A stretch of DNA of 64,000 nt from the sequence record NC_133255.1. One strand, given 5' to 3'. The position numbers were made by a program, and so were the translations under genes. The notes below the pieces were generated by a model that saw only the letters and a list, made by a program, of their open reading frames with translations, ran no database searches and had not been told where the DNA came from. This DNA comes from Escherichia phage vB_EcoS-26175I. Positions 10,906 through 56,930 of this stretch are shown here, piece after piece (the first letter of the stretch is position 1; every line of letters starts with the position of its first letter).

Positions 10906-10909
10906 AATT

Positions 10910-14152: not shown

Positions 14153-14154
14153 AT

Positions 14155-14229: not shown

Positions 14230-14235
14230 AAATAT

Positions 14236-14312: not shown

Positions 14313-14320
14313 GCAGAAAT

Positions 14321-14397
14321 TGGCGTCCTGTGCGGGGATCGAACCCGCAAATCCTACCTTGAAAGGGTAGTGACTTTACCAGTTTGTCTAACAGGAC
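14321..14397 (-). tRNA. tRNA-Glu (anticodon TTC)
   Basis: perfect acceptor gtcctgt/acaggac, T-arm gcggg-gatcgaa-cccgc, anticodon stem ctacc/ggtag; loop ctTTCaa. Confidence 0.75.
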
Positions 14398-14404
14398 TTA
14401 AATT

Positions 14405-14486
14405 TGGTGGGGGATGGAGGACTCGAACCTCCGCGTGGTATACCCGGTCTACAGCCAGGCGCCGTCGCCACTGAGCCAATCCCCCC
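14405..14486 (-). tRNA. tRNA-Tyr (anticodon GTA)
   Basis: 79-nt body, perfect acceptor gggggat/atccccc, T-arm ggagg-actcgaa-cctcc; loop ctGTAga. Confidence 0.65.
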
Positions 14487-14676
14487 CTATTTGAATGAAA
14501 AGTAAGTCGGTTAAACTCAAGGTGGAATATTTCAGGATTTCCTGACTTTACCCCTAAAAGTCAACTCGCTTAATTACTTCTCATTCAGATATGTTTCCAA
14601 ATTAGATAACTATTATATCAAGTTTTATGGCACTGAGCAAGTCAAATTTTAAAGAACTTGCTCAGTGCTGTATTAG

Positions 14677-14952
14677 TTAGTCGAACTTAGGAGTGACAGT
14701 TAAGGAGAACGGAAGTTCAAAAACTTCTTCACCCTCATCACTAACAGTGATTACACGACCTTTAAGTTCAGACATTGAAATATCAATATCAGCTTTTGCA
14801 TCTGGAGCCATGCCAGCTTCAACACATTTAGCTTTAATTTCCGGCAGAAGTTCTACATCATAGAAATAAAGCCATTCAATCTCACCTTCCCAGCCTTCCC
14901 AGGATTTACAGATTGCACTTTCAATACCAGTTGTTATAACACGATTTTGCAT
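14677..14952 (-). CDS. hypothetical protein
   Basis: 91 aa ORF; promoter 14983-15012 upstream. Confidence 0.35.
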   Translation of the reverse strand: MQNRVITTGIESAICKSWEGWEGEIEWLYFYDVELLPEIKAKCVEAGMAPDAKADIDISMSELKGRVITVSDEGEEVFELPFSLTVTPKFD

Positions 14953-14982
14953 TCGTTAACTCCTTCATCAATTTATATAACT

Positions 14983-15012
14983 ATTATACCAGAAATTTAA
15001 AGCAAAAGGCAA
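14983..15012 (-). promoter_or_regulatory. sigma70-type early promoter
   Basis: conserved element upstream of 14677-14952. Confidence 0.5.
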
Positions 15013-15042
15013 GTACATTTTTAAAAATTCTGTTTGGAGGAG

Positions 15043-15249
15043 CTAAACTCCAGATTCTTCAGCCAGATCAAGCCCAACCAATGTGATTGCCATAATAGCC
15101 GCGCCATGTTCTTTCTCTCCTAGCTCTTTGGCTTGAGTGAGAATATTTAGGAACTGCTTGTGGAAATCTTCCACTTCTTCTGTCATGCCTGCTTCAGAAA
15201 TAATACCTTTCAGCATAAAGCGCTGTGCAGTAATTTCAGGATTAGCCAT
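15043..15249 (-). CDS. hypothetical protein
   Basis: 68 aa ORF. Confidence 0.3.
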   Translation of the reverse strand: MANPEITAQRFMLKGIISEAGMTEEVEDFHKQFLNILTQAKELGEKEHGAAIMAITLVGLDLAEESGV

Positions 15250-15400
15250 TTATTATCTCCAGTTATTTAGAATGTAAGCCAAACTTAGGATCATAGCGAT
15301 CATAAGTCGTACCATTAGTTGAAGTCTTGATGCTATGAAAACGACAGTACATAAATTTACGTAGTGCTTTCTTAATAGCTTTCATTTTATTTCCTTAATT

Positions 15401-15478
15401 TGGTAGGGGTGGTGGGATTCGAACCCACAAAACCTGAATTTTAAGTCCAGTACCTATGCCAATTCGATTACACCCCCA
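15401..15478 (-). tRNA. tRNA-Leu (anticodon TAA), short variable loop
   Basis: T-arm gtggg-attcgaa-cccac; loop ctTAAaa; type-I length is unusual for Leu. Confidence 0.5.
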
Positions 15479-15486
15479 TGTAATCT

Positions 15487-15834
15487 TTAGAGTTCGTAAC
15501 CCTGAATATATCGAGCAAAACCAGTAATCTCGAACTGAATTGCCCATGCTACTTCCATATGCTCAATCTTACTAAAATGAGCGTCAGACTGTTCTAGGAA
15601 ATAACGAGAGATTATAGGGAACTCAATGTCAAAATCTTCCTTATCCATACCATAGAAGAAGTTTCCAGAAATATTACGAACTTCACGAAAGAAATCCTCA
15701 ATCTGAAAATCCATCAGAGGATAAGTATATTCCTCTTTGCTATCATCCGTTTGGAAGAAGCGGAAATGCACAAGGCAAGAGCCAATCAGATTTACTGCTG
15801 GAGTAGTGTAAATATCCATGTTAACCTCGATCAA
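15487..15834 (-). CDS. hypothetical protein
   Basis: 115 aa ORF. Confidence 0.35.
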   Translation of the reverse strand: MIEVNMDIYTTPAVNLIGSCLVHFRFFQTDDSKEEYTYPLMDFQIEDFFREVRNISGNFFYGMDKEDFDIEFPIISRYFLEQSDAHFSKIEHMEVAWAIQFEITGFARYIQGYEL

Positions 15835-16006
15835 TATCTAGAGAAATTCCAAATTCTGGATTAATACCAGAACCATTACATGCTGCGCATTCCCACTCTT
15901 CAAAACGCATATCGCCAGGTTCAGCATCATTAATAGTACCTGTTCCATGGCAGTGAGTACACATGCACTCTTCTAGTTCTTGTTTAAGCTCTTGAAACTT
16001 AGACAT
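15821..16006 (-). CDS. small Cys-rich protein (two CxxC pairs)
   Basis: 61 aa; CTHCHGTG...CAACNGSG. Confidence 0.3.
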   Translation of the reverse strand: MSKFQELKQELEECMCTHCHGTGTINDAEPGDMRFEEWECAACNGSGINPEFGISLDIDRG

Positions 16007-16023
16007 ATAGTCTCCTAGTTAAT

Positions 16024-16102
16024 TGGTGGCTCCCGGAGGATTCGAACCTACCTACCTTTCGCTTATGAGGCGACGGCTCATACCAAATGAGCTTGAGAAC
16101 CA
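16024..16102 (-). tRNA. tRNA-Met (anticodon CAT)
   Basis: T-arm with attcgaa loop; D-arm gctc/gagc; loop ctCATaa. Confidence 0.55.
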
Positions 16103-16106
16103 AATT

Positions 16107-16196
16107 TGGAGGAAGAAGTGGGAATCGAACCCACAAGGCTATGTTTCAAACCGACAGATTAGCAATCTGCTGCAATACCGTTATGCTATTCTTCCT
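16107..16196 (-). tRNA. tRNA-Ser (anticodon GCT), long variable arm
   Basis: 87-nt body, perfect acceptor ggaagaa/ttcttcc, T-arm gtggg-aatcgaa-cccac; loop ttGCTaa. Confidence 0.7.
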
Positions 16197-16705
16197 TAAT
16201 TATTTCGGGCATATTCCCCATGAAGTTTCTCTCTCAGTTGAATTAGAGCTTCATTTGCTGCTTCAGGAGTACTGTGCAGCCCTGCGGAGTATGACTTACC
16301 TTTAAACATTATTCTATCCTGCCACTGACCAGATGCTTTGTGGTAGGATACTCCCTTAAATCCGCTAGTATTCCTAGAAGATTTACTAGCATTATGAGTA
16401 TTAGTGGTACTATCCGCTGCTCTTAAATTTAAAGGATGTATGTTTAACTTATTGCAGTCTTTATGATCAATCATTTCCGGCCTATACCCATAATATAGTA
16501 TAAATACTATGATATGAGCTAAGTAATCTTGGTGATCAACGTTAACTCTGATATACCCAGAGCTTTTGTGCAAAGATCCCGCAGGTTTATTGGCAAACTT
16601 AGTATTAAATATCTTCTCCTCTCTGGAGTTTCCGGAGAGCGGATTCCACACCAGTACACCATCTTCTAAACGGAATCTATAAAGTATAGACTCATAGTCT
16701 AGCAT
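16196..16705 (-). CDS. free-standing HNH homing endonuclease with AP2-like DNA-binding region
   Basis: 169 aa; IDHKDCNKLNIHPLNLRAA (HNH) followed by SGFKGVSYHKASGQWQ. Confidence 0.55.
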   Translation of the reverse strand: MLDYESILYRFRLEDGVLVWNPLSGNSREEKIFNTKFANKPAGSLHKSSGYIRVNVDHQDYLAHIIVFILYYGYRPEMIDHKDCNKLNIHPLNLRAADSTTNTHNASKSSRNTSGFKGVSYHKASGQWQDRIMFKGKSYSAGLHSTPEAANEALIQLREKLHGEYARNN

Positions 16706-16738
16706 AAATAGTTCCTAATCTTACAAATTTATGAATAT

Positions 16739-16767
16739 ATTATACAGAAAATTTCGGCATTAAGCAA
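16739..16767 (-). promoter_or_regulatory. sigma70-type early promoter
   Basis: attata 16739-16744, aagcaa 16762-16767. Confidence 0.55.
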
Positions 16768-16775
16768 GTGAAATT

Positions 16776-17072
16776 TTACTGAACATTGCACTGATATACC
16801 TGTTTGATACGTGTCACTGACTTCTTAGTTGGGTTGATAGAAGAACCCTGCCACCAACGTGATTCTGAGCTGAGAACAGCACCAGGAACAGCTTGTTCTT
16901 TTGGCAGAACAATATCAAAACACTGTTCACCCATATTATCTTTAATGTGCGACCAAATGTCTAGAGTAAATCGTTCTAGCTTATTACAAACTTGAACTTG
17001 ACAAAGTTCCTGTTGTGGAGCAGCAAATACAGAAGTAGATACTAGAGTCAATGCAAGTACAATGCGTTTCAT
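16776..17072 (-). CDS. secreted small protein (signal peptide)
   Basis: MKRIVLALTLVSTSVFAAPQ signal peptide; promoter 17103-17131. Confidence 0.35.
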   Translation of the reverse strand: MKRIVLALTLVSTSVFAAPQQELCQVQVCNKLERFTLDIWSHIKDNMGEQCFDIVLPKEQAVPGAVLSSESRWWQGSSINPTKKSVTRIKQVYQCNVQ

Positions 17073-17102
17073 ATTTGATTCCTCTCTCAAATTTATAAAT
17101 AT

Positions 17103-17131
17103 ATTATACAGAAATTTTCTATATTAAGCAA
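17103..17131 (-). promoter_or_regulatory. sigma70-type early promoter
   Basis: attata 17103-17108, aagcaa 17126-17131. Confidence 0.55.
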
Positions 17132-17139
17132 GTGAAAAT

Positions 17140-17170
17140 TTCTGTATAATAGCCCTCGCTTAGAGGGCTA
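17140..17170 (-). terminator. hairpin downstream of pnuC
   Basis: stem agccctc / gagggct, loop gctta. Confidence 0.4.
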
Positions 17171-17178
17171 TAGCTACT

Positions 17179-17871
17179 TTATTTGTTAACGCGTACAAAG
17201 TATCCTTTATAGGCTCCCATAATAGAGTTACCTAAGAATACTAGCCACATTGCTAGGATTGCATAAGATGCACCTGTAGATTGAGTAGTTACAAGCCAAA
17301 TGTACACAGTACCAATGTTAATAGCAATCCAGATCAGCCACTGCTCGGCATACTGCTTAACCATAAGCCACATAGCGATCACACTACCTACCGCAGTAAA
17401 TGCATCCAACATTGGGAATGGATCAGCCGTAGTAGCTAAGAAACTACCATACCCTAACGTGGCTACTGCTAGAATCCCTAGAGTCAGCAGAGCTTGGACT
17501 TTAGTCAGAATCTTAGTTGGAACATCTGGCAGATTACTTGGCTTATTTTTATGCCATAAGTACATTCCATAAAACTGCATAGGAACGTAGTATAGCAGGT
17601 TTAGTGCAGCGTTACCATAAAGATCTGCGTTTAAAGCTGTAATACCATAGGTAAGAACACCAACTAAGCCCCAAATATAGTTAGAAACACGTCCTTTAGC
17701 AACCAAAATAACACAAACTACGTTGGTTATCGCAGTAGCCCAATCTAGAGCTGTACCATTATAGTTTGCTAAACTAATAAAGGCGACTGCCATAAACAGC
17801 CACAGATATTCCAAAGGTTTCCAGTTTTTAAAGTCATTTACAAGATAGTTAGTCATATTAAAACTCTCCAA
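17179..17871 (-). CDS. pnuC: nicotinamide riboside transporter PnuC-like membrane protein
   Basis: 230 aa polytopic membrane protein, Trp-rich TM helices, immediately downstream of the NadR-like gene. Confidence 0.6.
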   Translation of the reverse strand: MESFNMTNYLVNDFKNWKPLEYLWLFMAVAFISLANYNGTALDWATAITNVVCVILVAKGRVSNYIWGLVGVLTYGITALNADLYGNAALNLLYYVPMQFYGMYLWHKNKPSNLPDVPTKILTKVQALLTLGILAVATLGYGSFLATTADPFPMLDAFTAVGSVIAMWLMVKQYAEQWLIWIAINIGTVYIWLVTTQSTGASYAILAMWLVFLGNSIMGAYKGYFVRVNK

Positions 17872-18913
17872 CGTTAAAGTGATGAATCAGCCAGTCTACT
17901 GCGTTTACTGCTTCGTCCATACGAACTTTGTAGTCCGGGGAGTCGATGTAAACAGTACGTCCTTCAGGGAACTGATTTGGAAATTCTTTCTTCATCTGCT
18001 CGAACAGTTCAGAAGTAATTGAACGATCGGAGTTAATACGTAAACCATCATCTACCCACTTGACAGTAGGCGCTAGAACAATTACTAAATCGTAATGTTC
18101 TTCTTTTGCAATTGCTGTAACCACAGGATTCTTACGATGTTCATAAAGTCTGTGGTAGAACTCAGTAATAAAAGCATTTGTATCCACAAACATGATCTTA
18201 TTTGCAGTACGTTCTGCTTCAAACTCTAGCTCTTTGTGTCTGAACGCAATTTTACTATAATCTTCGCTGGTAAGCAGATTTTCGTTACCAACTAGATCAA
18301 CTTCACAATACGTTCGACCATATTCTTCTACCCACGAAGTGTTGTATAGCTTCGCAAGGTATTTTGTTAAAGTAGTCTTTCCCGAGCTTTCAGTCCCAAT
18401 GAGTACAACCTTACGCACGTAATCTTTACGAACTACGCTAGGAAGAAACTCCCAATACTTCATAAGATCATTACGAATCATTGTAGCTGAGATTGGAACA
18501 CGAGTCCGATCAGAATCTACAATATAATGACCAAACTTCGGCAGATATTTCTTATATTCTGCATCATAGTCTAGTTCGCTAGAGAAAATGGTGATCTCAG
18601 GCAAATGTCCATAATTTTCATTAAGGATTCTAGCATATTCCGGCCAACCATTCGGATATTCAGGAATATCATCTTCAATAATGTACTCTACCGAAACGTG
18701 CTCAATATCCGCGTAAGTTTGTTCTAACCAACGAAGACGATTCTTTAACTGTAATACTTCCTGATCACGTGTGTTCTGCTTATCCAGCCAACGATTATCA
18801 TGACTAACTACAATAATAACTCGTTCACACATAGTTGCTGCTGTGTTTATTAGGTTAATATGACCACGCGTTAATGGTGCGAACTTACCAATTACTAGAC
18901 CAGTCTTAATCAT
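17858..18913 (-). CDS. nadR: NadR-like bifunctional NMN adenylyltransferase / ribosylnicotinamide kinase (no HTH domain)
   Basis: N-terminal nucleotidyltransferase motif GKFAPLTRGH; C-terminal Walker A GTESSGKTT; Met start at 18913 with SD and promoter 18944-18972. Confidence 0.75.
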   Translation of the reverse strand: MIKTGLVIGKFAPLTRGHINLINTAATMCERVIIVVSHDNRWLDKQNTRDQEVLQLKNRLRWLEQTYADIEHVSVEYIIEDDIPEYPNGWPEYARILNENYGHLPEITIFSSELDYDAEYKKYLPKFGHYIVDSDRTRVPISATMIRNDLMKYWEFLPSVVRKDYVRKVVLIGTESSGKTTLTKYLAKLYNTSWVEEYGRTYCEVDLVGNENLLTSEDYSKIAFRHKELEFEAERTANKIMFVDTNAFITEFYHRLYEHRKNPVVTAIAKEEHYDLVIVLAPTVKWVDDGLRINSDRSITSELFEQMKKEFPNQFPEGRTVYIDSPDYKVRMDEAVNAVDWLIHHFNVGEF

Positions 18914-18943
18914 GTTTGATTCCTCTCTCAAATTTATAAATAT

Positions 18944-18972
18944 ATTATACAGAGAATTTAGCATTCAAGCAA
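18944..18972 (-). promoter_or_regulatory. sigma70-type early promoter driving nadR-pnuC
   Basis: attata 18944-18949, aagcaa 18967-18972. Confidence 0.55.
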
Positions 18973-19110
18973 TCGAATTTTTAAACTTTTTAGTGGAAAA
19001 ATCTCAAGGCATTTAGTGGTAGCACGTTGTTGCTGCAATAATAGTATATGATTCTAAAGAATTAAATACTAAAGACCTTAGTTGAATAACTTATGGGATT
19101 TTCTTTTACC

Positions 19111-19152
19111 TTAAATACAGAAAAGCCCGCGCTCTCGGAGGAAACGCGGGCT
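19111..19152 (-). terminator. rho-independent terminator downstream of SPFH gene
   Basis: stem agcccgcg / cgcgggct followed on minus strand by tttctgtattt. Confidence 0.55.
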
Positions 19153-19176
19153 TGTTTCGAAGATTACGTGGAACTA

Positions 19177-20121
19177 TTACTTATTACGCATATCCATAAT
19201 CATTTGACCATCGTAGCCAGTACCGACAACAGTCTGCGGTACACCACCTTGGTATTTTTCAGCACGAAGCATTTCAACTTCCAGCTGCTTCCAACGAATC
19301 ATTTCAGGAGTAATGGTACGTTGCAGAGCGGCGTTAGCTTCAGCTTCTTTCTTAGCTGCGTACAGTTTAGCATCTGCGTCACGTTCGTTAGCTACTGCCA
19401 TGTTTTCACGAGCGGAACGATCTGCCTCAGCTTGCTTAACTTTCTGCTGTGCTTCTTGTTCAACACGAGCCAGTTCAGCTTTTGCAGCGTTAACTTGTTC
19501 TTCACGAACTTTAGTGTTCTGTACCTGTTCCATGATTACCGGTGGCAGAGTAATATCCTGAAGGAATACTTGCTTAACCGTGTAACCATAAGGACGCGCG
19601 TACTCTTCTACCTCTTGCTGAATAGCAGTTTGCAGTTGAGCCTGAATCTTAGCGTCGAACAGATCTTGTGCTTTTGGTACGGACTTACCAAACTCACGAA
19701 TCGTAGACAGCATCTTCTCTTCAACGTATTTGTTCAGAGCCTGATCCTGAGTACCTGCGTTAACACGGTTCATAGGAGCTTTAGCACCATCAAACTGCAA
19801 CATAACGGTAATGTCAACAGTAGACTTAAACTTATCCTGGCTAGGAACCTGAAGTTTATCCAGTTTCATGGAAATATCTTTCGTACTAAAAGTATCAAAA
19901 GAAGCAAATGGGTTAACAATATGGAAGCCTGGCAATACAGGATTAGGGCTAACTTTACCCAGGAAGGTTTGAGTCTTAACAGTACCATCCTGAACAACTG
20001 TATAGGAATTGAGAGCCAGAATAAGAGCACCAAGACCAACAGCAGCACCAACACCCCAACGTTTAATAGTACGAATTACTTTTTGCTCAGAAGTCAGTTC
20101 TTTAGTGTTTTTAGTAAACAT
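19177..20121 (-). CDS. SPFH/band-7 (prohibitin/HflC-like) membrane protein
   Basis: N-terminal TM, SPFH-like core, C-terminal Ala/Glu/Gln-rich coiled coil; terminator hairpin 19111-19152 downstream. Confidence 0.65.
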   Translation of the reverse strand: MFTKNTKELTSEQKVIRTIKRWGVGAAVGLGALILALNSYTVVQDGTVKTQTFLGKVSPNPVLPGFHIVNPFASFDTFSTKDISMKLDKLQVPSQDKFKSTVDITVMLQFDGAKAPMNRVNAGTQDQALNKYVEEKMLSTIREFGKSVPKAQDLFDAKIQAQLQTAIQQEVEEYARPYGYTVKQVFLQDITLPPVIMEQVQNTKVREEQVNAAKAELARVEQEAQQKVKQAEADRSARENMAVANERDADAKLYAAKKEAEANAALQRTITPEMIRWKQLEVEMLRAEKYQGGVPQTVVGTGYDGQMIMDMRNK

Positions 20122-20132
20122 ATATTTCCTTA

Positions 20133-20333
20133 TTATTTAGAAGAGTTATCTACTACAGTTACTTTAGTTGCAGAAATAAATAGGCTAGCATCCACAGCAA
20201 ATTCAGGAGCTTTGATATCTCCATTATGAAATATGACTATACCGGAGACTACTTCAAATGCTAGTGCTGTAACATCGGTGGTCTTTAGTTGTGAATGTTC
20301 ACCTACTACTTTTACTATATATCGTGTTTTCAC
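20133..20333 (-). CDS. hypothetical protein
   Basis: 66 aa ORF. Confidence 0.3.
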   Translation of the reverse strand: MKTRYIVKVVGEHSQLKTTDVTALAFEVVSGIVIFHNGDIKAPEFAVDASLFISATKVTVVDNSSK

Positions 20334-20359
20334 TTTATTTTCCTAGCAGTTAATAAAAT

Positions 20360-20434
20360 TGGCCGAGGTGACAGGATTCGAACCTGCATAAAGGAATTTA
20401 GAAGACTCCTGCCTATCCCTTAGACTACACCCCG
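20360..20434 (-). tRNA. tRNA-Arg (anticodon TCT)
   Basis: T-arm acagg-attcgaa-cctgc; anticodon stem ggaat/actcc (one GU); loop ctTCTaa. Confidence 0.65.
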
Positions 20435-20442
20435 AGAATAAA

Positions 20443-20952
20443 TTACTTAATGATTTCGTTCAGTTTGGTTTGGCTTTCTAGCGCTGCTTTAGCTGATTTC
20501 TCAGCATCCCTAGCAGCACGTCGTGCTTTAGAGTCAATCAATAGCTTGTCATACTTGATATTAACGAACTCTTTAATATCATGGTAGAAACGTTGATGTG
20601 CCATGTATTCTTGTGCATCTGCATCGTAACAGCGCATATAGAAGTAATCACTAGGCTCTCCACGAAGTGTACGCTCTAGAATCTGAGGTCGATAACGACG
20701 TAATGTATCTTTCGCCATTTTTATTTCATCAGTTTCTTCACCAAGCTGAACTAGGTGATAAAGACGAGTATTGTCGATGTAATCCAAAGCTACGCTAAAG
20801 TATTCACCTTCTCGAAGATTGTATCCTGTAATCTCACTCATTTTCTCACGAGCTTGATCAAGTGTCAGGCGTTCTGGAAAATGTGCTATATGCAGAATAC
20901 GAGGGCAACACATTTCTTGATGATCAAAGATACAAGTTGTTCCTAGATTCAT
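20443..20952 (-). CDS. hypothetical protein
   Basis: 169 aa ORF downstream of the 1-kb ORF-poor region. Confidence 0.4.
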   Translation of the reverse strand: MNLGTTCIFDHQEMCCPRILHIAHFPERLTLDQAREKMSEITGYNLREGEYFSVALDYIDNTRLYHLVQLGEETDEIKMAKDTLRRYRPQILERTLRGEPSDYFYMRCYDADAQEYMAHQRFYHDIKEFVNIKYDKLLIDSKARRAARDAEKSAKAALESQTKLNEIIK

Positions 20953-21921
20953 ATTGATTCCTTTTGTTAGGTATTTTTAAGAACTCTCGTAAAAGTCCTT
21001 AAAGATACCCGGCGGTAGGTAGGGTCAGCCCCCTCAGATTAAGCTCTGCAGCCCTTCCGTCAGACAATATCTTCCAGTTTAAGTCAGGGTGACTTTGTGG
21101 TTATTCAGCTAAGGCTGATCGGCAGCTCTTAGGTCATGACTCCTCGTCGCTCTTTACTCACCGGCTAGGAAGTTATCTCGAGTTCTTCCTAGCTCTTTAG
21201 TCGTGCCATTAAGGTGCCTTCTAAGAGACTTACCTTTTCCCACTTTCGATTTGGGCATGTATCAGGTAAGGGTAGCCAAATCAGCATCCTAGTCCTACGG
21301 GGTCTCATCAAATTACATACCACCGCTTTTCGATATGTAATGCCCATGTCTATACGGGAGAAGAAAATGGGCATCTTTCTCTTCGTCTGATAGCTTGAAA
21401 AACGACTCCTCATGGAGGAAAAACTTCACTATCTAGGCTAAAGCCTAAAGTTCTTCTTTAATCCGGCAAAGCAAAACCGTAGTATATACTTTTCAGGAAT
21501 GGTTGGTTAGTCTGGAACCAACTACCGCGTGGTTTTGGCAGTGCACAGCTGCCTGCGATTGCTTCGCCATTAGAAGCACCAGTTATCCAACTCTTTCCGA
21601 CCGTGGGACTCGAACCCACATCTTCAGGCGGTGAAGCCCTAATAATACCTATTATACTAGGACGGCAGTGTTGTTACATAAGTGGTTTCGGCACCCCACT
21701 AACATAAACTAGAGAAGAGTTTACGAGATTTCGGGACAGCTCCCGAGTTTTCCGCAGATTTTCAGTTCCCTATCAATAGCAATAAGCGTTAGCTCGTAGC
21801 CTCTCTCAGAGTACTTACTAGTCTCCAACTCACCGACTCTATTCAGTGGAATAGCTATCCTAGTAGGAGTCACTAAACTCACTCAGCGTAATCGGCTCGC
21901 TGTTCTCTAATTTATGAATCT

Positions 21922-46339: not shown

Positions 46340-46648
46340 ATGAGCGATCAAGTAAATCAAAACTATGAAGGACACGTTGACGACCAGTCCATCATGCTTT
46401 GGGAGAAGGAGGGGGAACAAGTAAGATTAACCGTATCTGAATTTCGTGGGAATCTATACATGGGAATTCGTTACTGGCTCCAAGATATTACTGGAGAGTG
46501 GTTTCCAACGAAATCCGGCTTCTCTTTTCCTTATACCCTAGAAACTACATCACAGCTATTCTACGCTTTTACGCAAATCCTCAGTGAATCAGAGGTCTTG
46601 CATGAAGTACAGAAACGAGCTGAAGAACTCAAAGCCAAGAATGCCTAG
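46340..46648 (+). CDS. hypothetical protein
   Basis: 102 aa; hairpin plus T-run 46633-46665. Confidence 0.35.
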   Translation: MSDQVNQNYEGHVDDQSIMLWEKEGEQVRLTVSEFRGNLYMGIRYWLQDITGEWFPTKSGFSFPYTLETTSQLFYAFTQILSESEVLHEVQKRAEELKAKNA

Positions 46649-46675
46649 TTCTTGGCTTTTTCTTTATAAATGTAC

Positions 46676-46704
46676 TTGCTTTCTTCCCTATTTTCTTATA
46701 TAAT
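46676..46704 (+). promoter_or_regulatory. sigma70 promoter
   Basis: ttgctt 46676-46681, tataat 46699-46704. Confidence 0.55.
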
Positions 46705-46726
46705 AGTTATATAAATTAATGAGAGG

Positions 46727-47005
46727 GTGAATATGAAAAAGATAAAAATAAGTCCACTCAAACCTTTACCGTACATAGGACAGTCTTTAGTTCTTTCCTG
46801 GGAAGAAAAGCTCAATGGAGAGAAGGTACGTATGGTTCGACAGGGATATAAACTTATATCTCTCGCTTACGAAGCAAACACATTAGTTGCTGATATTTAC
46901 TCTCCAATAACTCAAAGAGTGGGAAGGACTACCTATCTTTGCTTATGTAAGAACTTTACATGGCAGGGAGATACTATTCATCCTAAAGCATATGAGGTAC
47001 AGTAA
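46727..47005 (+). CDS. hypothetical protein
   Basis: 92 aa; promoter 46676-46704, SD GAGAGGG. Confidence 0.3.
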   Translation: MNMKKIKISPLKPLPYIGQSLVLSWEEKLNGEKVRMVRQGYKLISLAYEANTLVADIYSPITQRVGRTTYLCLCKNFTWQGDTIHPKAYEVQ

Positions 47006-47200
47006 ATGACAATAACACTTCCAAAGATTCAAGCAAAACTTAATTTGCTCTCCATGGCAAGAAGCAACTATCAGGATAGTATCGGCACCCCAAACCAGAA
47101 AGCATACAAAGATGCATGGTTGAAAGAAGCTGCTGATTTAGCTGGTATGGCTGCTCAGTATAATAAAGAACTCAAAATGGAAATCGCAGACGATGAATAA
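47006..47200 (+). CDS. hypothetical protein
   Basis: 64 aa ORF. Confidence 0.3.
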   Translation: MTITLPKIQAKLNLLSMARSNYQDSIGTPNQKAYKDAWLKEAADLAGMAAQYNKELKMEIADDE

Positions 47201-48164
47201 TGTAAAAGACTTTATCAAACGTTGTCAAGAAGCGTACTACCAGGGAATGAGTCTTATTTCCGATGAAGAATATGATCGTCTAATTAAAAGATTCCCTCTA
47301 GAGGAAGAAATCGGACCGAAAGGTGATATCCCTCATTTGTATCGTATGTATTCTTTGCAGAAAGTCTATTATGGTCGTGGTGATAAATCTCCGTTCAATC
47401 CATTAGGTCAGGTTGAAACTGATAAGTTAGATGGTTGTGCGATTTCCCTATTATATATTAATGGTGAGTTTGTTCAAGCGTTAACTCGTGGTAACGGTAT
47501 TCTAGGGAATGATGTAACGCATAATGTTAAAATGCTGAACATCCCCAAAACTATTTCCCAAAAAGTACCAACTCAAATCACTGGTGAAGTTCTCATTACT
47601 AAAGAAGTAGAGAACAAACGTAACTATGCTTCTGGTGCTATTAACCTGAAAGATAGTGATGATTTCATGCAACGTATTGGTGAAGGTGGTTTAATCTTCG
47701 TTGCATATGGTATCCAGTGTTCAGCGGAAACAGTCGGTATTACAGAAGCCTATTTAAAAGATATGCTTTGGCTAGAGAATGAGAACTTCTTGACAGTTGT
47801 TAATGTTCGTTCCTTCTTTAAATGGATTCCGACAGATGGTAAAGTTGTTCGCATTAACGACAATAATAAATTCTTCCGTGAAGGTTGGACTAATAAATTT
47901 CCTCGTGGTGCATTTGCTATTAAAGAGGATGAAGAAGGCGAAATTACCACACTTGTTAAAGTTGAATGGCAAGTAGGGGCTTCTGGTAAGGTAACTCCAG
48001 TTGGTTATTTCGAACCGGTGATTATTGATGATGCCACAATCGTTAAAGCAACTCTTAATAACGTTGATTATATTAACGCTCTCGATTTAGAGATCGGTTG
48101 CCAGATTCGAGTGATTCGTGCTGGTGGTGTAATCCCTTGTATAGTAGAGCGAGTATACGACTAA
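47193..48164 (+). CDS. NAD-dependent DNA ligase, N-terminal (adenylation/OB) part
   Basis: N-terminus EEYDRLIKRF like LigA Ia domain; adenylation lysine motif KLDG. Confidence 0.75.
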   Translation: MNNVKDFIKRCQEAYYQGMSLISDEEYDRLIKRFPLEEEIGPKGDIPHLYRMYSLQKVYYGRGDKSPFNPLGQVETDKLDGCAISLLYINGEFVQALTRGNGILGNDVTHNVKMLNIPKTISQKVPTQITGEVLITKEVENKRNYASGAINLKDSDDFMQRIGEGGLIFVAYGIQCSAETVGITEAYLKDMLWLENENFLTVVNVRSFFKWIPTDGKVVRINDNNKFFREGWTNKFPRGAFAIKEDEEGEITTLVKVEWQVGASGKVTPVGYFEPVIIDDATIVKATLNNVDYINALDLEIGCQIRVIRAGGVIPCIVERVYD

Positions 48165-48307
48165 TTCGTAACCCTTTGCTACCCGTTTACCATGTCGGAA
48201 TTATAAAGTGGTTATTGACATTTTCGCCGCTTAGGTATATACTATTATCATTCAGTTGAGGGATAGAAAGTTATGGCGAGGGTAAGCAAAGTTAGTTAAA
48301 ATTGTAG

Positions 48308-48336
48308 TTGCTAAATGCTTAAATACTTGCTATAAT
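48308..48336 (+). promoter_or_regulatory. sigma70 promoter between the two ligase ORFs
   Basis: ttgcta 48308-48313, tataat 48331-48336. Confidence 0.55.
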
Positions 48337-48363
48337 ATTTATATAAATTGATAAGGAAGAAAT

Positions 48364-49146
48364 TTGATGAAAATCGAAATTCCAACACAATGTCCCTCTT
48401 GTGGTTCTAAGCTAGATCTTGTCAACGGGCAATTATTCTGTAGGAATAAGTCCAACTGTCCAGCGCAATCAAGTAAGTTAATCGAGAACTTCTGCACAAA
48501 AATGAAGTTAAAGGGCTTTGGCCCGAAAACTATTGAGAAGCTGGAGCTGACTAAGATCTCAGAACTGTTTTACCTGACCGAAGAAGATTTGGTCGGAGCT
48601 GTGGGTAGCAAGGTTGCCACTAAGTTGATTAGCGAGTTAAATACTAAGGTTCGCGGAGACATTGACTTTGGTTCAGTTCTCGGTTCTTTAGGAATTCCTC
48701 TTATTGGAGAGGTTGCAGCAAAGAAACTGTCCCAAAATTGCACTAGCTTCCACGATGTGAAGGCTGACGGCAAGGCTGGAGAAAATTACAAAACCTGGCT
48801 AAATTCCCCACAAGGCAAGGATGTTATTGAATTACCGTGGAAATTCTCAACTGGTATTCGAGGCATTAAAGCTGATATCATCATTACGGATGATTTAGTT
48901 GCCCAACCAAATGGAATCACGGTCTGTATTACCGGATCTTTGCAAGATTTTGCAAATCGAACGGATGCAACAAACTATTTAGAAAGTCTAGGATATACGG
49001 TTAAGAAGTCCGTTACCAAAGATGTCAAATACCTAATCTGTGAGGATGAATCAAAACGTTCTTCCTCATCTTATAAGAAAGCCGAAACGAATGGGATAGA
49101 AATCCTGTCGATTAAAGAACTATTGGAGAAAAATAATAATGTCTAA
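48364..49146 (+). CDS. NAD-dependent DNA ligase, C-terminal (Zn-finger/HhH/BRCT) part
   Basis: CPSCGSKL...CRNKSNCPAQ zinc finger then HhH-like and BRCT-like regions; own promoter 48308-48336. Confidence 0.75.
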   Translation: MMKIEIPTQCPSCGSKLDLVNGQLFCRNKSNCPAQSSKLIENFCTKMKLKGFGPKTIEKLELTKISELFYLTEEDLVGAVGSKVATKLISELNTKVRGDIDFGSVLGSLGIPLIGEVAAKKLSQNCTSFHDVKADGKAGENYKTWLNSPQGKDVIELPWKFSTGIRGIKADIIITDDLVAQPNGITVCITGSLQDFANRTDATNYLESLGYTVKKSVTKDVKYLICEDESKRSSSSYKKAETNGIEILSIKELLEKNNNV

Positions 49147-49906
49147 ACTGAACTGGAACGTAGAAGGTGTAACCGAGTCTCTGAAAGCAAAAGCCACTGC
49201 TCTGGGTGTTGCTGTAATCTCTCAAGAACAAGTAGCTGCTATCGCTGCTGAACTGGCTACCGAGACTGGTAAAGACGTTACCGCCCGCTCTGTTGGCTCT
49301 AAGCTGCGTAAAGAAGGTTTTGAAGTACAGAAAGCTAACGAAGTACAGAAATCCCCGTGGACTCCTGAGCAGGAAGCTGAACTGGTTGATTTCCTGAACG
49401 CTCATGCTGGTCAGTATACTTACGCTGAAATCGCTGCTGCTGTAGCTGGTGGTCAGTTTGGTGCTAAGCAGGTACAGGGAAAGATCCTGAGTCTGGAAAT
49501 GACCGCTTCTGTTAAGCCAACTGAAAAAGCTGCTGCTGTTCGTTCCTTCACTCCGGACGAAGAAACTGATTTCGTTAATCAGGTTGTTGCTGGTGCTACT
49601 ATTGAAGCTATCGCTGCTCACTTCGGTCGCAATATTAAGCAGATCCGTGGTAAAGCTCTGAGCCTGCTTCGTGAAGGTCGTATCGCTGCTATGCCGGTAC
49701 AGGAAACTTCAAGTGCTAAAACTCGTGAAGATCTGTTAGAAGGTCTGGATCTGGCTAACATGACTGTTGCTGAGATCGCTGAAAAAACTGGTAAGTCTGA
49801 GCGCGGTGTTAAATCTATGCTGTCTCGTCGTGGTCTGGTTGCTAAGGACTATGATGGTGCCGCTAAGCGTGCTAAACTGGATGCAAAAGCTGCGGCTGCT
49901 GAATAA
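49139..49906 (+). CDS. Ala-rich protein with three HTH-like repeats
   Basis: repeats TYAEIAAAVAG / TIEAIAAHFGRNIKQIRGKALSL / TVAEIAEKTGKSERGVKSMLSRRGL; GCT/CTG-rich codon usage unlike neighbours. Confidence 0.45.
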   Translation: MSKLNWNVEGVTESLKAKATALGVAVISQEQVAAIAAELATETGKDVTARSVGSKLRKEGFEVQKANEVQKSPWTPEQEAELVDFLNAHAGQYTYAEIAAAVAGGQFGAKQVQGKILSLEMTASVKPTEKAAAVRSFTPDEETDFVNQVVAGATIEAIAAHFGRNIKQIRGKALSLLREGRIAAMPVQETSSAKTREDLLEGLDLANMTVAEIAEKTGKSERGVKSMLSRRGLVAKDYDGAAKRAKLDAKAAAAE

Positions 49907-49915
49907 TCTGGTAAA

Positions 49916-49948
49916 TTAAACCTAAGGGGAGGGGGCTATGCTCCTTCC
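49916..49948 (+). terminator. rho-independent terminator
   Basis: aaggggagg...ccttcccct followed by ttttt. Confidence 0.6.
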
Positions 49949-49988
49949 CCTTTTTGCATTTAGAAGGCACGAAAGCGTGCAAAGGAGA

Positions 49989-51461
49989 ATGACCTTGTTT
50001 AACGTGCAAGCTGTAGTGTTGAAGATGCTTCTCGCTTCTGAACAGAAGCAAATAGCATTGGAAACATTCTCAAAACTGCATAAAGATCATTTTAATGACG
50101 CTTTCTCCTCAATTTACCAAGCCGTCCAGAATTATTATAAGAAATATAACGCAATGCCGTCCATTGACGCACTGATGCTTGAGGCCAATAGGAACGCCCG
50201 CCTTTCTCAAGCTCTTGTCGTCTTAGCTAACACTCAAATTCCAGAAGTGAGCATGGAACAGGCACTTGAAGTCCTAGAAGCCGAATATACACAGGATCTA
50301 TTCCTGAAACTTCTAGAAACAGACGTGCTTCAAGATTTAACAATGCTGGATCAGGGAGAAATTCTCAACCGAGTTGCCTCCCTTCACTTAAAATTAGAAG
50401 AGAAAGTAACGAATACTGGAAAGGTATTCAACGCAGACACAATGCGTATTTTCCAGAGAGAAGAAGATACCAAACTGAACTTGATCGCTCTTGGTATTTG
50501 TAATGAGTTCGACGCTCAAATTGGTTTAGCTCGCACAGAAACGTTACTGCTTGGTGGTTGGCGTGGTACTGGTAAATCCATTATCTGTTCAAACATACAG
50601 GTTCAGCAATATTTGAATGGAGACATTGCTCCATATTTCTCAATTGAGATGAAAGAGCACGAAGTGTTTAGACGTAATCTGGCTATGTTAGCTGGAGTAT
50701 CTGCATTAGCAATGCGTAATAACACTCTTGAAGGTGCTGCTCTGTTGAGATTAGCCAGAACTAGGGCTAGAATGTTTAATGGTGGTGAAGAGCTTTTCGA
50801 TAACTTCGTTAAGCAGTACACTATGGCTAAAATGAGTGACTTCTATGATATGGAAAGTAAACTCATTGAAGGCTATGAGCTTCACACTCCTATGATCATC
50901 GTTTACGACCCTGAACTGTCTATTACGACGGTTGACGTAGAATTAAATAAACTAGTTGCTAAGTATGGTGATAAGGTTACTGTAGCTCTTCTAGACTACA
51001 TTAACCAAACAAGACTTCCAGATTCAAAGACCATTGACATGTATGACTGGAAAGAACAGATGGTTGTTAGTTCATCTTTCAAATCTATCTGCCAGAAACA
51101 TAACGTGGCTGGTGTTGCCCCTTACCAGATTGACCAAGATGGTAGAACGCGTATGTCTAAAGGGATTCTTGATTCCGCAGATATGGCTGCTAATCTTAAT
51201 GCTGCAAAAGCTGATAACGGTCAAGGTGCTATTATGTTTGACTTCGTTAAGACTCGTTCCTCTGATAGTGTGAAGTTTATGCCTAAGATGAACTGGGAAA
51301 CTCTGCGAATGGATAATACTACCAACCTAGCAATGGAAGATATTGCGCAAATGGAAGCTGAGTTCGTTATTCCTATTGAAAAGGATAAACCAGCTCAACC
51401 TAAACGTGCTAAGAAAGACAAAGCTGAAAATTCAACAGGTGAACAGGCCAGCGATATATGA
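49989..51461 (+). CDS. DnaB-like replicative helicase
   Basis: Walker A GGWRGTGKS; start at ATG 49989 after SD AAAGGAGA. Confidence 0.6.
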   Translation: MTLFNVQAVVLKMLLASEQKQIALETFSKLHKDHFNDAFSSIYQAVQNYYKKYNAMPSIDALMLEANRNARLSQALVVLANTQIPEVSMEQALEVLEAEYTQDLFLKLLETDVLQDLTMLDQGEILNRVASLHLKLEEKVTNTGKVFNADTMRIFQREEDTKLNLIALGICNEFDAQIGLARTETLLLGGWRGTGKSIICSNIQVQQYLNGDIAPYFSIEMKEHEVFRRNLAMLAGVSALAMRNNTLEGAALLRLARTRARMFNGGEELFDNFVKQYTMAKMSDFYDMESKLIEGYELHTPMIIVYDPELSITTVDVELNKLVAKYGDKVTVALLDYINQTRLPDSKTIDMYDWKEQMVVSSSFKSICQKHNVAGVAPYQIDQDGRTRMSKGILDSADMAANLNAAKADNGQGAIMFDFVKTRSSDSVKFMPKMNWETLRMDNTTNLAMEDIAQMEAEFVIPIEKDKPAQPKRAKKDKAENSTGEQASDI

Positions 51462-55468: not shown

Positions 55469-56817
55469 AGGTTGTTATATCTAATAAAGCCTATTTCAAG
55501 CCCGATGATGAACTCTGGGATTACTGTAGTAAGCAAACCACTTATCACATCGAGACAATGACTAGTAAATACCCTATTATGTATAAGAATAGTGGTGTTG
55601 TTGCTAAAGAGATTAAGTGGATTCCCATTACGCGTCTGGATTTGCTAGATGCTAAGGGAGTAAAATACGAATTAGTTGATAAACGCACGTTAGCTCCGGT
55701 AAAAATACCAGAACCTCAGTTCAAGCTGCGTGAAGAAGATCAACTCCCTATATATGAAGAGTGTGATGATACTTGTATTATCAATGGTAAGCCCGGATTT
55801 GGTAAAACTATCCTAGCTTTAGCTCTTGCATATAAGTTTGGCCAGAAAACTCTGGTAATCTGCACCAACACATCCATACGGGAAATGTGGGCTGCAGAAG
55901 TTCGTAAATGGTTTGGATTCGAGCCTGGTATTATAGGTTCTGGAAAGTATAATATTGATCCACCAATCGTGGTCAGTAATATACAAACAGTGAACAAACA
56001 TGCGAATAATCTTTCTAAGGTGTTCGGTACTGTTATAGTTGATGAAGTTCACCACTGTGTGGCTACAACTTTCACTAATTTCTTAGAGATCTCGTGTGCT
56101 CGCTACAAGATTGGTTTATCGGGTACGTTAAAACGTAAAGATGGCCTACAAGTTATGTTCAAAGATTTCTTTGGATATAAGATCTTTAGTCCGCCTGTCA
56201 ATAACACTGTTCCACCCACAATCCATAGGTACTCCGTACCTGTCGAGTTATCAGGAAACCAGAACGTACCGTGGGCACTACGTGCTAATGATGTATATAA
56301 TCATCCTGAATATCGGGAAACTATTATAAACCTAGCACATTTATATGTGTCTATGGGGCATAAGGTTCTCTTTGTAAGTGATAGGACGGAACTAATCCAA
56401 ACAATATTAGAAGCTCTCGCACAACGTGGTGTTACAACCTATGAGATTATAGGTGCAACTCCTTTGGATGATCGATTGAGAATCCAGAAAGATGTAGCAG
56501 AGGGCGGTCCATGTGTACTTGCAGCAGCTCAGAGTATCTTCTCAGAAGGTATTTCTCTTAACGAGCTGTCTTGTTTAATAATGGGAAGTCTCATTAATAA
56601 TGAATCTCTCATAGAACAGCTAGCAGGTCGCGTTCAACGTATTGTTGACGGAAAACTAGATCCGATTGTTGTAGATTTAATTATGAAAGGAGGTACTGGT
56701 TTAAGACAGGCTTCTGGACGTATGGCTGTATATCGCAATAATGCATGGAAAACTATTACTATGACTCCGGAGAAAGCAGTACAATTAGCTAAAATTGCAT
56801 TTGGCAACTGCTCATAA
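55465..56817 (+). CDS. SF2 DNA helicase
   Basis: Walker A GKPGFGKT, Walker B/DEAH-like VDEVHH. Confidence 0.7.
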   Translation: MKVVISNKAYFKPDDELWDYCSKQTTYHIETMTSKYPIMYKNSGVVAKEIKWIPITRLDLLDAKGVKYELVDKRTLAPVKIPEPQFKLREEDQLPIYEECDDTCIINGKPGFGKTILALALAYKFGQKTLVICTNTSIREMWAAEVRKWFGFEPGIIGSGKYNIDPPIVVSNIQTVNKHANNLSKVFGTVIVDEVHHCVATTFTNFLEISCARYKIGLSGTLKRKDGLQVMFKDFFGYKIFSPPVNNTVPPTIHRYSVPVELSGNQNVPWALRANDVYNHPEYRETIINLAHLYVSMGHKVLFVSDRTELIQTILEALAQRGVTTYEIIGATPLDDRLRIQKDVAEGGPCVLAAAQSIFSEGISLNELSCLIMGSLINNESLIEQLAGRVQRIVDGKLDPIVVDLIMKGGTGLRQASGRMAVYRNNAWKTITMTPEKAVQLAKIAFGNCS

Positions 56818-56829
56818 TTATTGTATAAT
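56801..56829 (+). promoter_or_regulatory. sigma70 promoter (first of a tandem pair)
   Basis: ttggca 56801-56806, tgtataat ending 56829. Confidence 0.5.
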
Positions 56830-56900
56830 ATACACATAAATTTGAGAGAGAAAGTTTCGGATTGATAAGAAAGTCCGAAGCAGAAAAATAAAAATTGTAC

Positions 56901-56930
56901 TTGTCAAATCCTCCCGATTTAATGTATAAT
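56901..56930 (+). promoter_or_regulatory. sigma70 promoter (second of a tandem pair)
   Basis: ttgtca 56901-56906, tataat 56925-56930. Confidence 0.5.

What the first reader, a model, noticed from the sequence alone, without database searches (positions are those of the whole stretch)
47193..49146. NAD-dependent DNA ligase encoded as two separate ORFs with an internal promoter
The adenylation/OB portion (47193-48164, KLDG motif) and the Zn-finger/HhH/BRCT portion (48364-49146) are separated by ~200 bp containing a TTGCTA-17-TATAAT promoter (48308-48336) and an RBS. Either the ligase works as a two-subunit enzyme or the gene was split by an insertion or deletion.
Basis: seen in the sequence. 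Interest (0 to 1): 0.5.

Follow-up and report, generated by a model that had tools for sequence, protein, structure and literature searches.

The report
T5-type split NAD DNA ligase

Summary
The window is a T5-like phage, 100% identical to Escherichia phage vB_EcoS-26175 (Epseptimavirus). ORF A (47193-48164) carries domain Ia, the adenylation domain (K78-L-D-G) and the OB fold. ORF B (true start ATG 48367, ending 49146) carries a Cys4 zinc finger, HhH and BRCT. Against E. coli LigA the cut falls cleanly between the OB fold and the zinc finger (residue 393 | about 400). The 202-nt gap has stops in all frames and no match to any curated RNA family. It holds two sigma-70 promoters, not one. They are 75/75 identical to the promoters annotated as P-K28b and P-K28a in the T5 GenBank record, which also names the genes ligA and ligB. 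The split is present in every Demerecviridae genus examined. Both halves are under strong purifying selection (dN/dS 0.04-0.14). A solved structure exists for the Providencia phage PR1 homologue: PDB 9HU3, 'heterodimeric DNA ligase in complex with nicked DNA'. [quoted passage not shown] Small additions from this work: the tandem promoter pair sits at a fixed distance from ligB in all but the most distant relative examined, and in some relatives the gap has taken up extra genes (GIY-YIG, NADAR, DprA-like).

The parts
47193..48164 (+). ligA: subunit A of the NAD-dependent DNA ligase (323 aa). It holds a short domain Ia, the nucleotidyltransferase domain with the catalytic Lys78 in KLDG, and the OB fold. 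It ends at the position of E. coli LigA residue 393.
   Evidence: PF01653 E 2.3e-23, PF03120 E 9.5e-22; 9hu3_A E 2.6e-106; phrog_3359 E 2.6e-176, full length; alignment to E. coli LigA; dN/dS 0.04-0.14.
48165..48366 (+). 202-nt non-coding spacer between ligA and ligB. It has stops in all three frames and no match to any curated RNA family.
   Evidence: It is 197/202 identical to the T5 spacer.
48195..48269 (+). Promoter identical to T5 'P-K 28b'. Core TTGACA-17-TATACT at 48215-48243.
   Evidence: 11/12 match; T5 annotation; 75/75 identical; same position in other genera.
48288..48362 (+). Promoter identical to T5 'P-K 28a'. Core TTGCTA-17-TATAAT at 48308-48336, with TG upstream of the -10 and the downstream ATAAATTGA...GGA typical of T5 early promoters.
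   Evidence: (about 12 sites in the window have the same extended architecture).
48367..49146 (+). ligB: subunit B of the ligase (259 aa). It holds a Cys4 zinc finger (C9, C12, C25, C31), the HhH domain and BRCT. It starts at the position of about E. coli LigA residue 400. AAGGAAG Shine-Dalgarno at 48352-48358.
   Evidence: 9hu3_B E 5.4e-80; E. coli LigA residues 402-529 and 585-666; phrog_3498 E 1.2e-136; AF2 model pLDDT 84; Foldseek 9hu3_B E 1.7e-25, 2owo_A E 1.2e-7.
49139..49906 (+). D5 DNA-binding protein gene. Its ATG overlaps the ligB stop (ATGTCTAA), so it lies in the same transcription unit and is probably translationally coupled to ligB.
49924..49952 (+). Strong terminator-like hairpin (13 pairs followed by a T run) that closes the ligB-D5 unit.

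Best explanation
The locus encodes the heterodimeric NAD+-dependent DNA ligase typical of T5-like phages (Demerecviridae). Subunit A (Ia-NTase-OB) reacts with NAD+ to form the lysyl-AMP intermediate at Lys78 and carries out the chemistry. Subunit B (Zn finger-HhH-BRCT) supplies the DNA-binding half of the clamp. The two polypeptides assemble around a nick, as the single-chain bacterial LigA does, and seal it during phage DNA replication.

The 202-nt spacer is a transcription-unit boundary, not a lesion. It carries the tandem T5 early promoters P-K28b and P-K28a. These promoters, together with any read-through from ligA (no terminator follows ligA), drive ligB and the overlapping D5 gene up to the terminator at 49924-49952.

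What is shown here: domain content, the clean cut point, homology to each chain of a solved heterodimer on nicked DNA, family-wide conservation, purifying selection, and identity of the promoters to annotated T5 promoters. What is inferred: subunit assembly and activity in this particular phage, and that the promoters mainly raise ligB and D5 expression.
For: Identity of the genome. The window is 100% identical to Escherichia phage vB_EcoS-26175 II-V, and 454 phage records share the region.

Domain content. The two halves align colinearly to one full-length phage LigA family (phrog_3869 positions 9-381 and 388-654 of 656) and to E. coli LigA (A ends at residue 393, B starts at about 400). Y22, D32, Y35, D36, K115, D117, G118, R136, E173, R200, D285, K314, R379 and the four Cys are all kept.

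Solved homologue. The matches are 9hu3_A (E 2.6e-106) and 9hu3_B (E 5.4e-80). Chain B is 100% identical to Providencia phage PR1/PSTCR5. The entry title is 'PR1 phage heterodimeric DNA ligase in complex with 21-mer nicked DNA containing phage nick sequence', released 2026-01-14.

Conservation. The split is present in Tequintavirus, Epseptimavirus, Sugarlandvirus, Novosibvirus, the two Providencia phages PR1 and PSTCR5, Pectobacterium phage DU_PP_V, Thalassavirus, Pogseptimavirus, other Vibrio phages and a metagenomic relative. The top 120 of 628 LigB homologues include no full-length ligase: 118 are 247-263 aa and two are shorter (190 aa, labelled partial, and 214 aa). dN/dS is 0.04-0.14 for both halves.

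Annotation and literature. The T5 record annotates ligA, ligB, P-K28b and P-K28a, and the window matches both promoters 75/75. [quoted passage not shown] PMC3632103 lists ligA and ligB as T5 subunits.
Against: No biochemical result for this phage or for T5 itself could be read here, and the paper behind 9HU3 is not in the searchable library. Three E. coli LigA residues are substituted: K290 to R, R208 to N and H23 to Q. The HhH match in Pfam is below the gathering score, and the HhH region is shorter than in E. coli. Promoter activity was not measured here; it rests on the T5 annotation.
Confidence: 0.93

Rival explanations
1. The two ORFs are an artefact or a decaying gene: a sequencing or assembly error, or a pseudogene broken by a recent insertion or deletion.
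For: Bacterial LigA is a single chain, so two ORFs look broken at first sight.
Against: The same arrangement, with an identical 202-nt gap, occurs in hundreds of independently sequenced phages. The two ORFs are in different frames, and the gap has several stops in each frame. Only about 6 linker residues are missing relative to full-length LigA. dN/dS is 0.04-0.14 in both halves. A homologous heterodimer has been crystallised.
Confidence: 0.01
2. The gap is removed or bypassed (group I intron, intein-like element, ribosomal bypass or frameshift), so that one full-length LigA polypeptide is made.
For: Phage genes are often interrupted by introns, and T4 gene 60 shows translational bypass (general knowledge; one search lists such cases).
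Against: No curated RNA family matches, even at E <= 10. The gap consists of two complete promoters plus a Shine-Dalgarno sequence and an ATG. The leader fold is not conserved among relatives. The PR1 homologue was solved as two separate chains whose ends coincide with the ORF ends.
Confidence: 0.02
3. The split was created by a mobile element, such as a free-standing homing endonuclease gene landing between the OB fold and the Zn finger, as mobE did in Aeromonas phage Aeh1 nrdA. The element was later lost and left only its regulatory DNA. This concerns origin, not present function, and is compatible with the best explanation.
For: A GIY-YIG ORF sits in the gap of Salmonella phage SP3 and one other phage. 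Other cargo occupies the gap in Proteus and Vibrio phages: NADAR, a DprA-like protein and small ORFs. The Aeh1 precedent is in PMC3045599 (abstract only).
Against: The endonuclease is in only 3 records representing 2 phages, among about 1000 records that carry ligB, so it is a late and sporadic invader. All inserts lie upstream of the conserved promoter block. No relative with a fused gene or an ancestral endonuclease was found.
Confidence: 0.25
4. Subunit B has a life of its own. It is expressed from its own strong promoters together with D5, in excess over A, and acts as a nick-binding or scaffold protein in addition to, or instead of, completing the ligase.
For: Two strong promoters lie directly upstream of ligB, and ligB overlaps D5. 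The tandem promoters are kept at a fixed distance from ligB in all but the most distant relative examined. The 161 nt upstream of ligB are invariant between genera whose synonymous sites have diverged. The 9HU3 title mentions the phage nick sequence.
Against: A and B are always adjacent and co-conserved. B contains exactly the LigA modules that an A-type fragment lacks for ligation. There is no evidence of any kind for a separate function.
Confidence: 0.1

Closest known systems
Bacteriophage T5 ligA (T5.116) / ligB (T5.117) with promoters P-K28b and P-K28a (GenBank AY543070; Wang et al. 2005, Virology 332:45, as cited in PMC1684257)
   Same: Same gene order (D3 ... ligA, gap, ligB, D5, D6 helicase) and the same 202-nt gap, 197/202 identical. 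Both annotated promoters are 75/75 identical. LigA is 95.7% and LigB 95.8% identical.
   Different: The window phage is an Epseptimavirus, not a Tequintavirus. It has two extra small ORFs (46727-47005 and 47006-47200) upstream of ligA that are absent in T5 and BF23.
PR1 phage heterodimeric DNA ligase, PDB 9HU3 / 9I5I (Providencia phage vB_PreS_PR1)
   Same: Two chains whose ends match the window ORF ends. Chain A matches at E 2.6e-106 and chain B at E 5.4e-80. The domain split is the same, and the gap (195 nt) also holds tandem promoters.
   Different: Only about 53-55% amino-acid identity. The host genus is different.
Single-chain bacterial LigA (E. coli LigA, PDB 2OWO)
   Same: All six modules are present in the same order (Ia, NTase, OB, Zn, HhH, BRCT), and the catalytic and Zn-binding residues are kept.
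   Different: The protein is cut into two polypeptides at residue 393 | about 400. Subunit A is about 70 aa shorter than the equivalent E. coli part, the HhH region is shortened, and K290 is R, R208 is N and H23 is Q.
'Genes in pieces': Aeromonas phage Aeh1 nrdA split by the homing endonuclease gene mobE (PMC3045599)
   Same: An essential DNA-metabolism enzyme of a lytic phage is encoded as two adjacent genes whose products must reassemble. In a few relatives (phage SP3) a GIY-YIG endonuclease gene lies between the halves.
   Different: In the window and in most relatives there is no endonuclease gene in the gap, only promoters. The ligase split is family-wide and old, and no mobile-element-derived interaction domains are evident.

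Membership tests
NAD+-dependent DNA ligase (LigA family) | Nucleotidyltransferase motif I KxDG with the adenylated lysine | tested here: met
   K78-L-D-G in ORF A aligns with E. coli K115-L-D-G. PF01653 E 2.3e-23.
NAD+-dependent DNA ligase (LigA family) | Domain Ia residues needed for reaction with NAD+ (E. coli Y22, H23, D32, Y35, D36; list taken from my knowledge of the Sriskanda & Shuman 2002 work, which is cited in PMC7470946) | tested here: met
   Y16, D24, Y27 and D28 are kept. H23 is Q17. Four of five.
NAD+-dependent DNA ligase (LigA family) | NTase motifs III, IV and V (E173, D285, K290, K314) and the OB fold | tested here: met
   E132, D215 and K244 are kept. K290 is R220. PF03120 OB E 9.5e-22.
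NAD+-dependent DNA ligase (LigA family) | Cys4 zinc finger, HhH domain and BRCT domain | tested here: met
   C9, C12, C25 and C31 in ORF B (read from the sequence; misplaces one Cys by two columns). BRCT E 1.1e-8. The HhH match is below the Pfam cut-off, but this region aligns to E. coli LigA residues 402-529, and the AF2 model matches 2owo_A at E 1.2e-7.
NAD+-dependent DNA ligase (LigA family) | All modules on one polypeptide | tested here: not met
   Two ORFs in different frames, separated by a 202-nt gap with stops in all frames. This is the defining departure of the T5-type variant.
NAD+-dependent DNA ligase (LigA family) | NAD+-dependent nick sealing | not testable with these tools
   Inferred from homology only.
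T5-type heterodimeric NAD+ ligase (LigA + LigB subunits; PDB 9HU3) | Adjacent genes cut between the OB fold and the Zn finger, each homologous to one chain of the solved heterodimer | tested here: met
T5-type heterodimeric NAD+ ligase (LigA + LigB subunits; PDB 9HU3) | Demerecviridae replication-module context (D3 ... ligA, ligB, D5, D6 helicase, primase) | tested here: met
T5-type heterodimeric NAD+ ligase (LigA + LigB subunits; PDB 9HU3) | Physical A-B complex on nicked DNA | not testable with these tools
   Shown for PR1 by the PDB entry title. Inferred for this phage.
T5 early promoters P-K28a / P-K28b | Sequence identity to the annotated T5 promoters and sigma-70 hexamers with a 17-nt spacer | tested here: met
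   75/75 identity for each. 11/12 and 10/12 consensus matches. P-K28a shares the extended architecture of about 12 other sites in the window.
T5 early promoters P-K28a / P-K28b | Transcription initiation in vitro or in vivo | not testable with these tools
   Rests on the T5 annotation. From my own knowledge, these names come from Gentz & Bujard 1985, which is cited in PMC7472727 but could not be read.
Gene split by a homing endonuclease ('genes in pieces') | Endonuclease gene between the two halves | tested here: not met
   There is no ORF of 40 aa or more lying within the window gap. A GIY-YIG ORF is present only in SP3-type relatives.
Group I/II intron or other self-splicing element | Match to an intron covariance model or a conserved RNA structure | tested here: not met
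   No curated RNA family reaches its threshold; the best E-value is 2. The fold is not conserved among relatives.

The most novel reading that the evidence does not exclude
The split may be maintained because it uncouples the two halves. The invariant 161-nt tandem-promoter block (P-K28b/P-K28a), kept at a fixed distance from ligB in all but the most distant relative examined, would let LigB be made with D5 in a different amount or at a different time than LigA. LigB could then have a second role, for example as a nick-binding or scaffold factor at the natural single-strand nicks of T5-type genomes. The conserved P-K28b leader could also carry a regulatory element of its own.
Probability: 0.1. 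Interest if true: 0.45.

Novelty: already known. Interest (0 to 1): 0.1.

Why it matters
It matters little as a discovery. The split ligase of T5 has been annotated since the 2004-2005 genome sequences. [quoted passage not shown] A crystal structure of a homologous heterodimer on nicked DNA was released in January 2026. The case remains a useful natural example that the LigA clamp can be assembled from two polypeptides cut between the OB fold and the Zn finger. The comparative data here add two small points: the tandem promoter pair upstream of ligB is as conserved as the split itself, and the space just after ligA repeatedly takes up foreign genes.

Tried and rejected
- **RNA element in the gap.** An Rfam scan of 47900-48600 at E <= 10 gave only chance-level hits, so an intron or known RNA element was rejected.
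- **Structured leader.** The P-K28b leader (48250-48375) folds with z = -3.7. The equivalent regions of L003, L035 and L036 fold differently and less significantly, so a conserved RNA structure is not supported.
- **Mini-ORF after P-K28b.** The mini-ORF MARVSKVS has a counterpart in PR1 (MADKPDGNE) but none in the Klebsiella or Vibrio relatives. It is treated as chance.
- **Homing endonucleases in the gaps of distant relatives.** Pfam and PHROGs found DprA-like, crAss001_48-like and NADAR proteins and unknowns, but no endonuclease. The only endonuclease is the GIY-YIG ORF of phage SP3 and one relative.
- **Literature.** Searches for the paper behind 9HU3 and for P-K28a/b found nothing readable.
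- **Promoter count.** The simple promoter count is not above chance, so it was not used as evidence.
- **Not run.** The search of protein representatives, the metagenome and genome contig scans, and a model of subunit A were not run, because the verdict does not depend on them.
Full report
**What is in the sequence**

The two ORFs exist as described: 47193-48164 (323 aa) and 48364/48367-49146 (260/259 aa), both on the + strand.
- Pfam places the NAD-ligase adenylation domain (E 2.3e-23) and the NAD-ligase OB fold (E 9.5e-22) in the first ORF. It places BRCT (E 1.1e-8) and a sub-threshold HhH match in the second.
- The KLDG motif is at residues 78-81 of ORF A. ORF B opens with CPSCGS...FCRNKSNC, a Cys4 zinc finger at C9, C12, C25 and C31.
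- The spacer runs from 48165 to 48366, which is 202 nt. It has several stop codons in each frame, and ligB lies in the +1 frame relative to ligA.
- The correct start of ORF B is ATG 48367, preceded by AAGGAAG. TTG 48364 is not the start. This is the start used in GenBank records and in the crystallised homologue.

**Where the window comes from**

Region 47000-49400 is 100% identical to Escherichia phage vB_EcoS-26175 II-V (Epseptimavirus, Demerecviridae). 454 phage records match it, and 428 of them cover at least 80% of the query. [quoted passage not shown] The window also holds the T5-type block of 31 tRNA genes.

**How clean the cut is**

- Both halves align end to end with separate PHROG families: phrog_3359 (E 2.6e-176) and phrog_3498 (E 1.2e-136).
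- They also align colinearly with one full-length phage LigA family, phrog_3869, at positions 9-381 and 388-654 of 656.
- Against E. coli K-12 LigA, subunit A ends at residue 393 and subunit B begins at about residue 400. Only a short inter-domain linker between the OB fold and the Zn finger is missing.
- These residues are kept: Y22, D32, Y35, D36, K115, D117, G118, R136, E173, R200, D285, K314, R379, V383, I384 and the four cysteines.
- These are substituted: H23 to Q, R208 to N and K290 to R.
- Subunit A is about 70 residues shorter than the equivalent E. coli part, and the HhH region is shortened.

**It is a known two-subunit enzyme**

- Against all PDB sequences, ORF A matches 9hu3_A ('DNA ligase (NAD(+))', 339 aa) at E 2.6e-106 over its full length. 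ORF B matches 9hu3_B ('DNA ligase subunit B', 248 aa) at E 5.4e-80.
- Chain B is 100% identical to Providencia phages PR1 and PSTCR5.
- An AlphaFold model of ORF B (pLDDT 84) retrieves 9hu3_B first (E 1.7e-25). The entry title is 'PR1 phage heterodimeric DNA ligase in complex with 21-mer nicked DNA containing phage nick sequence', released 2026-01-14. E. coli LigA on nicked DNA (2owo) follows at E 1.2e-7.
- The T5 GenBank record AY543070 names the genes ligA (T5.116) and ligB (T5.117).
- PMC3632103 lists them as subunits A and B.
[quoted passage not shown] 2005. It also shows that an Ia-NTase-OB fragment of the archaeal LigN adenylates itself but cannot ligate. That result explains why subunit B is needed.

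**The spacer**

- The consensus scan finds two sites on the + strand inside the gap: TTGACA-17-TATACT at 48215-48243 (11/12) and TTGCTA-17-TATAAT at 48308-48336 (10/12, with TG upstream of the -10).
- The overall count of such sites in 46500-50000 is not above the shuffled expectation, so the count alone proves nothing.
- The T5 record annotates 'promoter P-K 28b' and 'promoter P-K 28a' in exactly this gap. Window 48195-48269 and 48288-48362 are 75/75 identical to them.
- P-K28a also has the extended architecture (AAAATT..TTGCTA..TATAATAT..ATAAATTGA..GGA) shared by about a dozen other sites in the window. Its TATAATATT contains the ATATT element that PMC7472727 reports for all known T5 early promoters.
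- No terminator follows ligA. A strong terminator-like hairpin follows D5 at 49924-49952. The D5 start codon overlaps the ligB stop.
- The simplest reading is a ligB-D5 unit driven by the two promoters plus read-through from ligA.
- No curated RNA family matches the gap.

**Comparative picture**

tblastn with LigB finds 1007 phage records. Those at 45-100% identity are Demerecviridae with a stand-alone B gene. Only hits below 30% identity are full-length LigA of jumbo phages.

In 41 fetched loci, A and B are always adjacent and separate. The figures below are distances from the last aligned A residue to the first aligned B residue, so they include the 3-nt ligA stop codon.

| A-to-B distance (nt) | Where |
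|---|---|
| 205 | Nearly all Markadamsvirinae, including T5 itself (L020) |
| 202 | Sugarlandvirus (L003) |
| 192 | Pectobacterium phage DU_PP_V (L035) |
| 195 | Providencia phages PR1 and PSTCR5 (L036, L038) |
| 110 | A 40%-identical metagenomic relative (L040) |
| 347-1060 | Proteus and Vibrio phages, where extra ORFs follow ligA |

The extra ORFs in the larger gaps include a 55-aa ORF, a NADAR-domain protein, a DprA-like protein and a crAss001_48-like protein. Salmonella phage SP3 and one relative carry a GIY-YIG endonuclease ORF there. All these inserts lie upstream of the promoter block.

In nine of the ten divergent loci scanned (all except L040), a pair of promoter-like sites has its -35 hexamers at -146 to -156 and at -59 to -61 from the ligB start. 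The window's own pair sits at -152 and -59. The metagenomic L040 has a single site.

Between the window and Tequintavirus BF23 or T5, the 161 nt from 48206 to 48366 are identical. Third codon positions in ligA and ligB differ by 29% and 12% over the same comparison (dS 0.7 and 0.24).

dN/dS is 0.04-0.14 for both halves. In the 5.8-billion-protein collection, the best 120 of 628 LigB homologues include no full-length ligase: 118 are 247-263 aa and two are shorter (190 aa, labelled partial, and 214 aa).

**Rivals**

- An artefact or pseudogene is excluded by the number of independent genomes, the purifying selection and the solved heterodimer.
- Splicing or bypass to a single chain is not supported. 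There is no RNA family match and no conserved fold, the gap has its own promoters, Shine-Dalgarno sequence and ATG, and the PDB entry has separate chains.
- A mobile-element origin of the split remains possible, by analogy with Aeh1 nrdA/mobE (PMC3045599). However, the only endonuclease seen is sporadic and recent.
- A separate role for LigB is not excluded, and nothing supports it directly.

**Verdict**

The feature is already annotated, published and structurally solved. Novelty: already known. Interest is low. The minor additions are the family-wide fixed tandem promoters upstream of ligB and the use of the post-ligA space as a landing pad for accessory genes.

Noticed in passing
L033:2199-2840 (Salmonella phage SP3; equivalent to window 48165-48205): A 213-aa GIY-YIG ORF (PF01541, E 1.1e-5) lies between ligA and the promoter block in phage SP3 and one other Salmonella phage. 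It overlaps the end of ligA and replaces the variable 41 nt after the stop codon.
   Followed up: partly
L039:2153-2809 (Proteus phage, IMG/VR contig 2974547928): A 218-aa NADAR-domain protein (PF08719, E 1.8e-31) is inserted between the two halves of the NAD-dependent ligase. Closely related Proteus phages (L004, L041) have only a 55-aa ORF there.
   Followed up: partly
L005:1784-2344 (Vibrio phage Chloris) and L004:526-1158 (Proteus phage M4H10_20): A DprA-like protein (phrog_768, E 8.7e-49) sits inside the ligA-ligB gap in the Vibrio phage. In the Proteus phage, a gene annotated DprA sits just upstream of ligA. So the gene moves around the ligase locus.
   Followed up: no
window 48206-48366: This 161-nt block (both promoters, the 50 nt between them and the RBS) is 161/161 identical between this Epseptimavirus and Tequintavirus BF23 and T5. 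Flanking synonymous sites have dS of 0.24-0.7. The inter-promoter 50 nt are still 74% identical in Sugarlandvirus, where third codon positions are at 43-45%. This is more constraint than two promoter cores need.
   Followed up: partly
window 48250-48350: The leader transcribed from P-K28b folds into a long hairpin that pairs with the P-K28a -10 region (-26.1 kcal/mol, z = -3.7). The fold is not reproduced in the Klebsiella, Pectobacterium or Providencia relatives. A mini-ORF (MARVSKVS, 48272-48298) with a GAGGGA Shine-Dalgarno sequence is also not conserved.
   Followed up: partly
window 49924-49952 and 49938-51461: The annotated ATG (49938) of the D6 DnaB-like helicase lies in the loop of the terminator-like hairpin that follows D5. 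The Klebsiella phage homologue is annotated 25 aa shorter, so the helicase start may be misplaced. A candidate is ATG 49989, after AAGGAG, although the spacing is very short.
   Followed up: no
window 46631-46726: A terminator-like hairpin (46631-46659) is followed by another T5-early-type promoter (cTTGCTT-17-TATAAT, then AGTTATATAAATTAATGAGAGGG, at about 46675-46703). This heads the unit that contains ligA.
   Followed up: no
window 46727-47005 and 47006-47200: Two small ORFs (92 and 64 aa; the second matches phrog_8267, function unknown) lie between the PC4-like gene and ligA. They are absent in BF23 and T5, where ligA directly follows the promoter.
   Followed up: no
window 56801-56930 (+ strand): A second tandem pair of T5-early-type promoters lies about 100 nt apart (TTGGCA-17-TATAAT and TTGTCA-18-TATAAT). 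The arrangement resembles P-K28b/P-K28a.
   Followed up: no
window 6463-21667 (- strand): There is a block of 31 tRNA genes, including one called tRNA-SeC (anticodon TCA) at 21594-21667. Such blocks are typical of T5-like phages.
   Followed up: no
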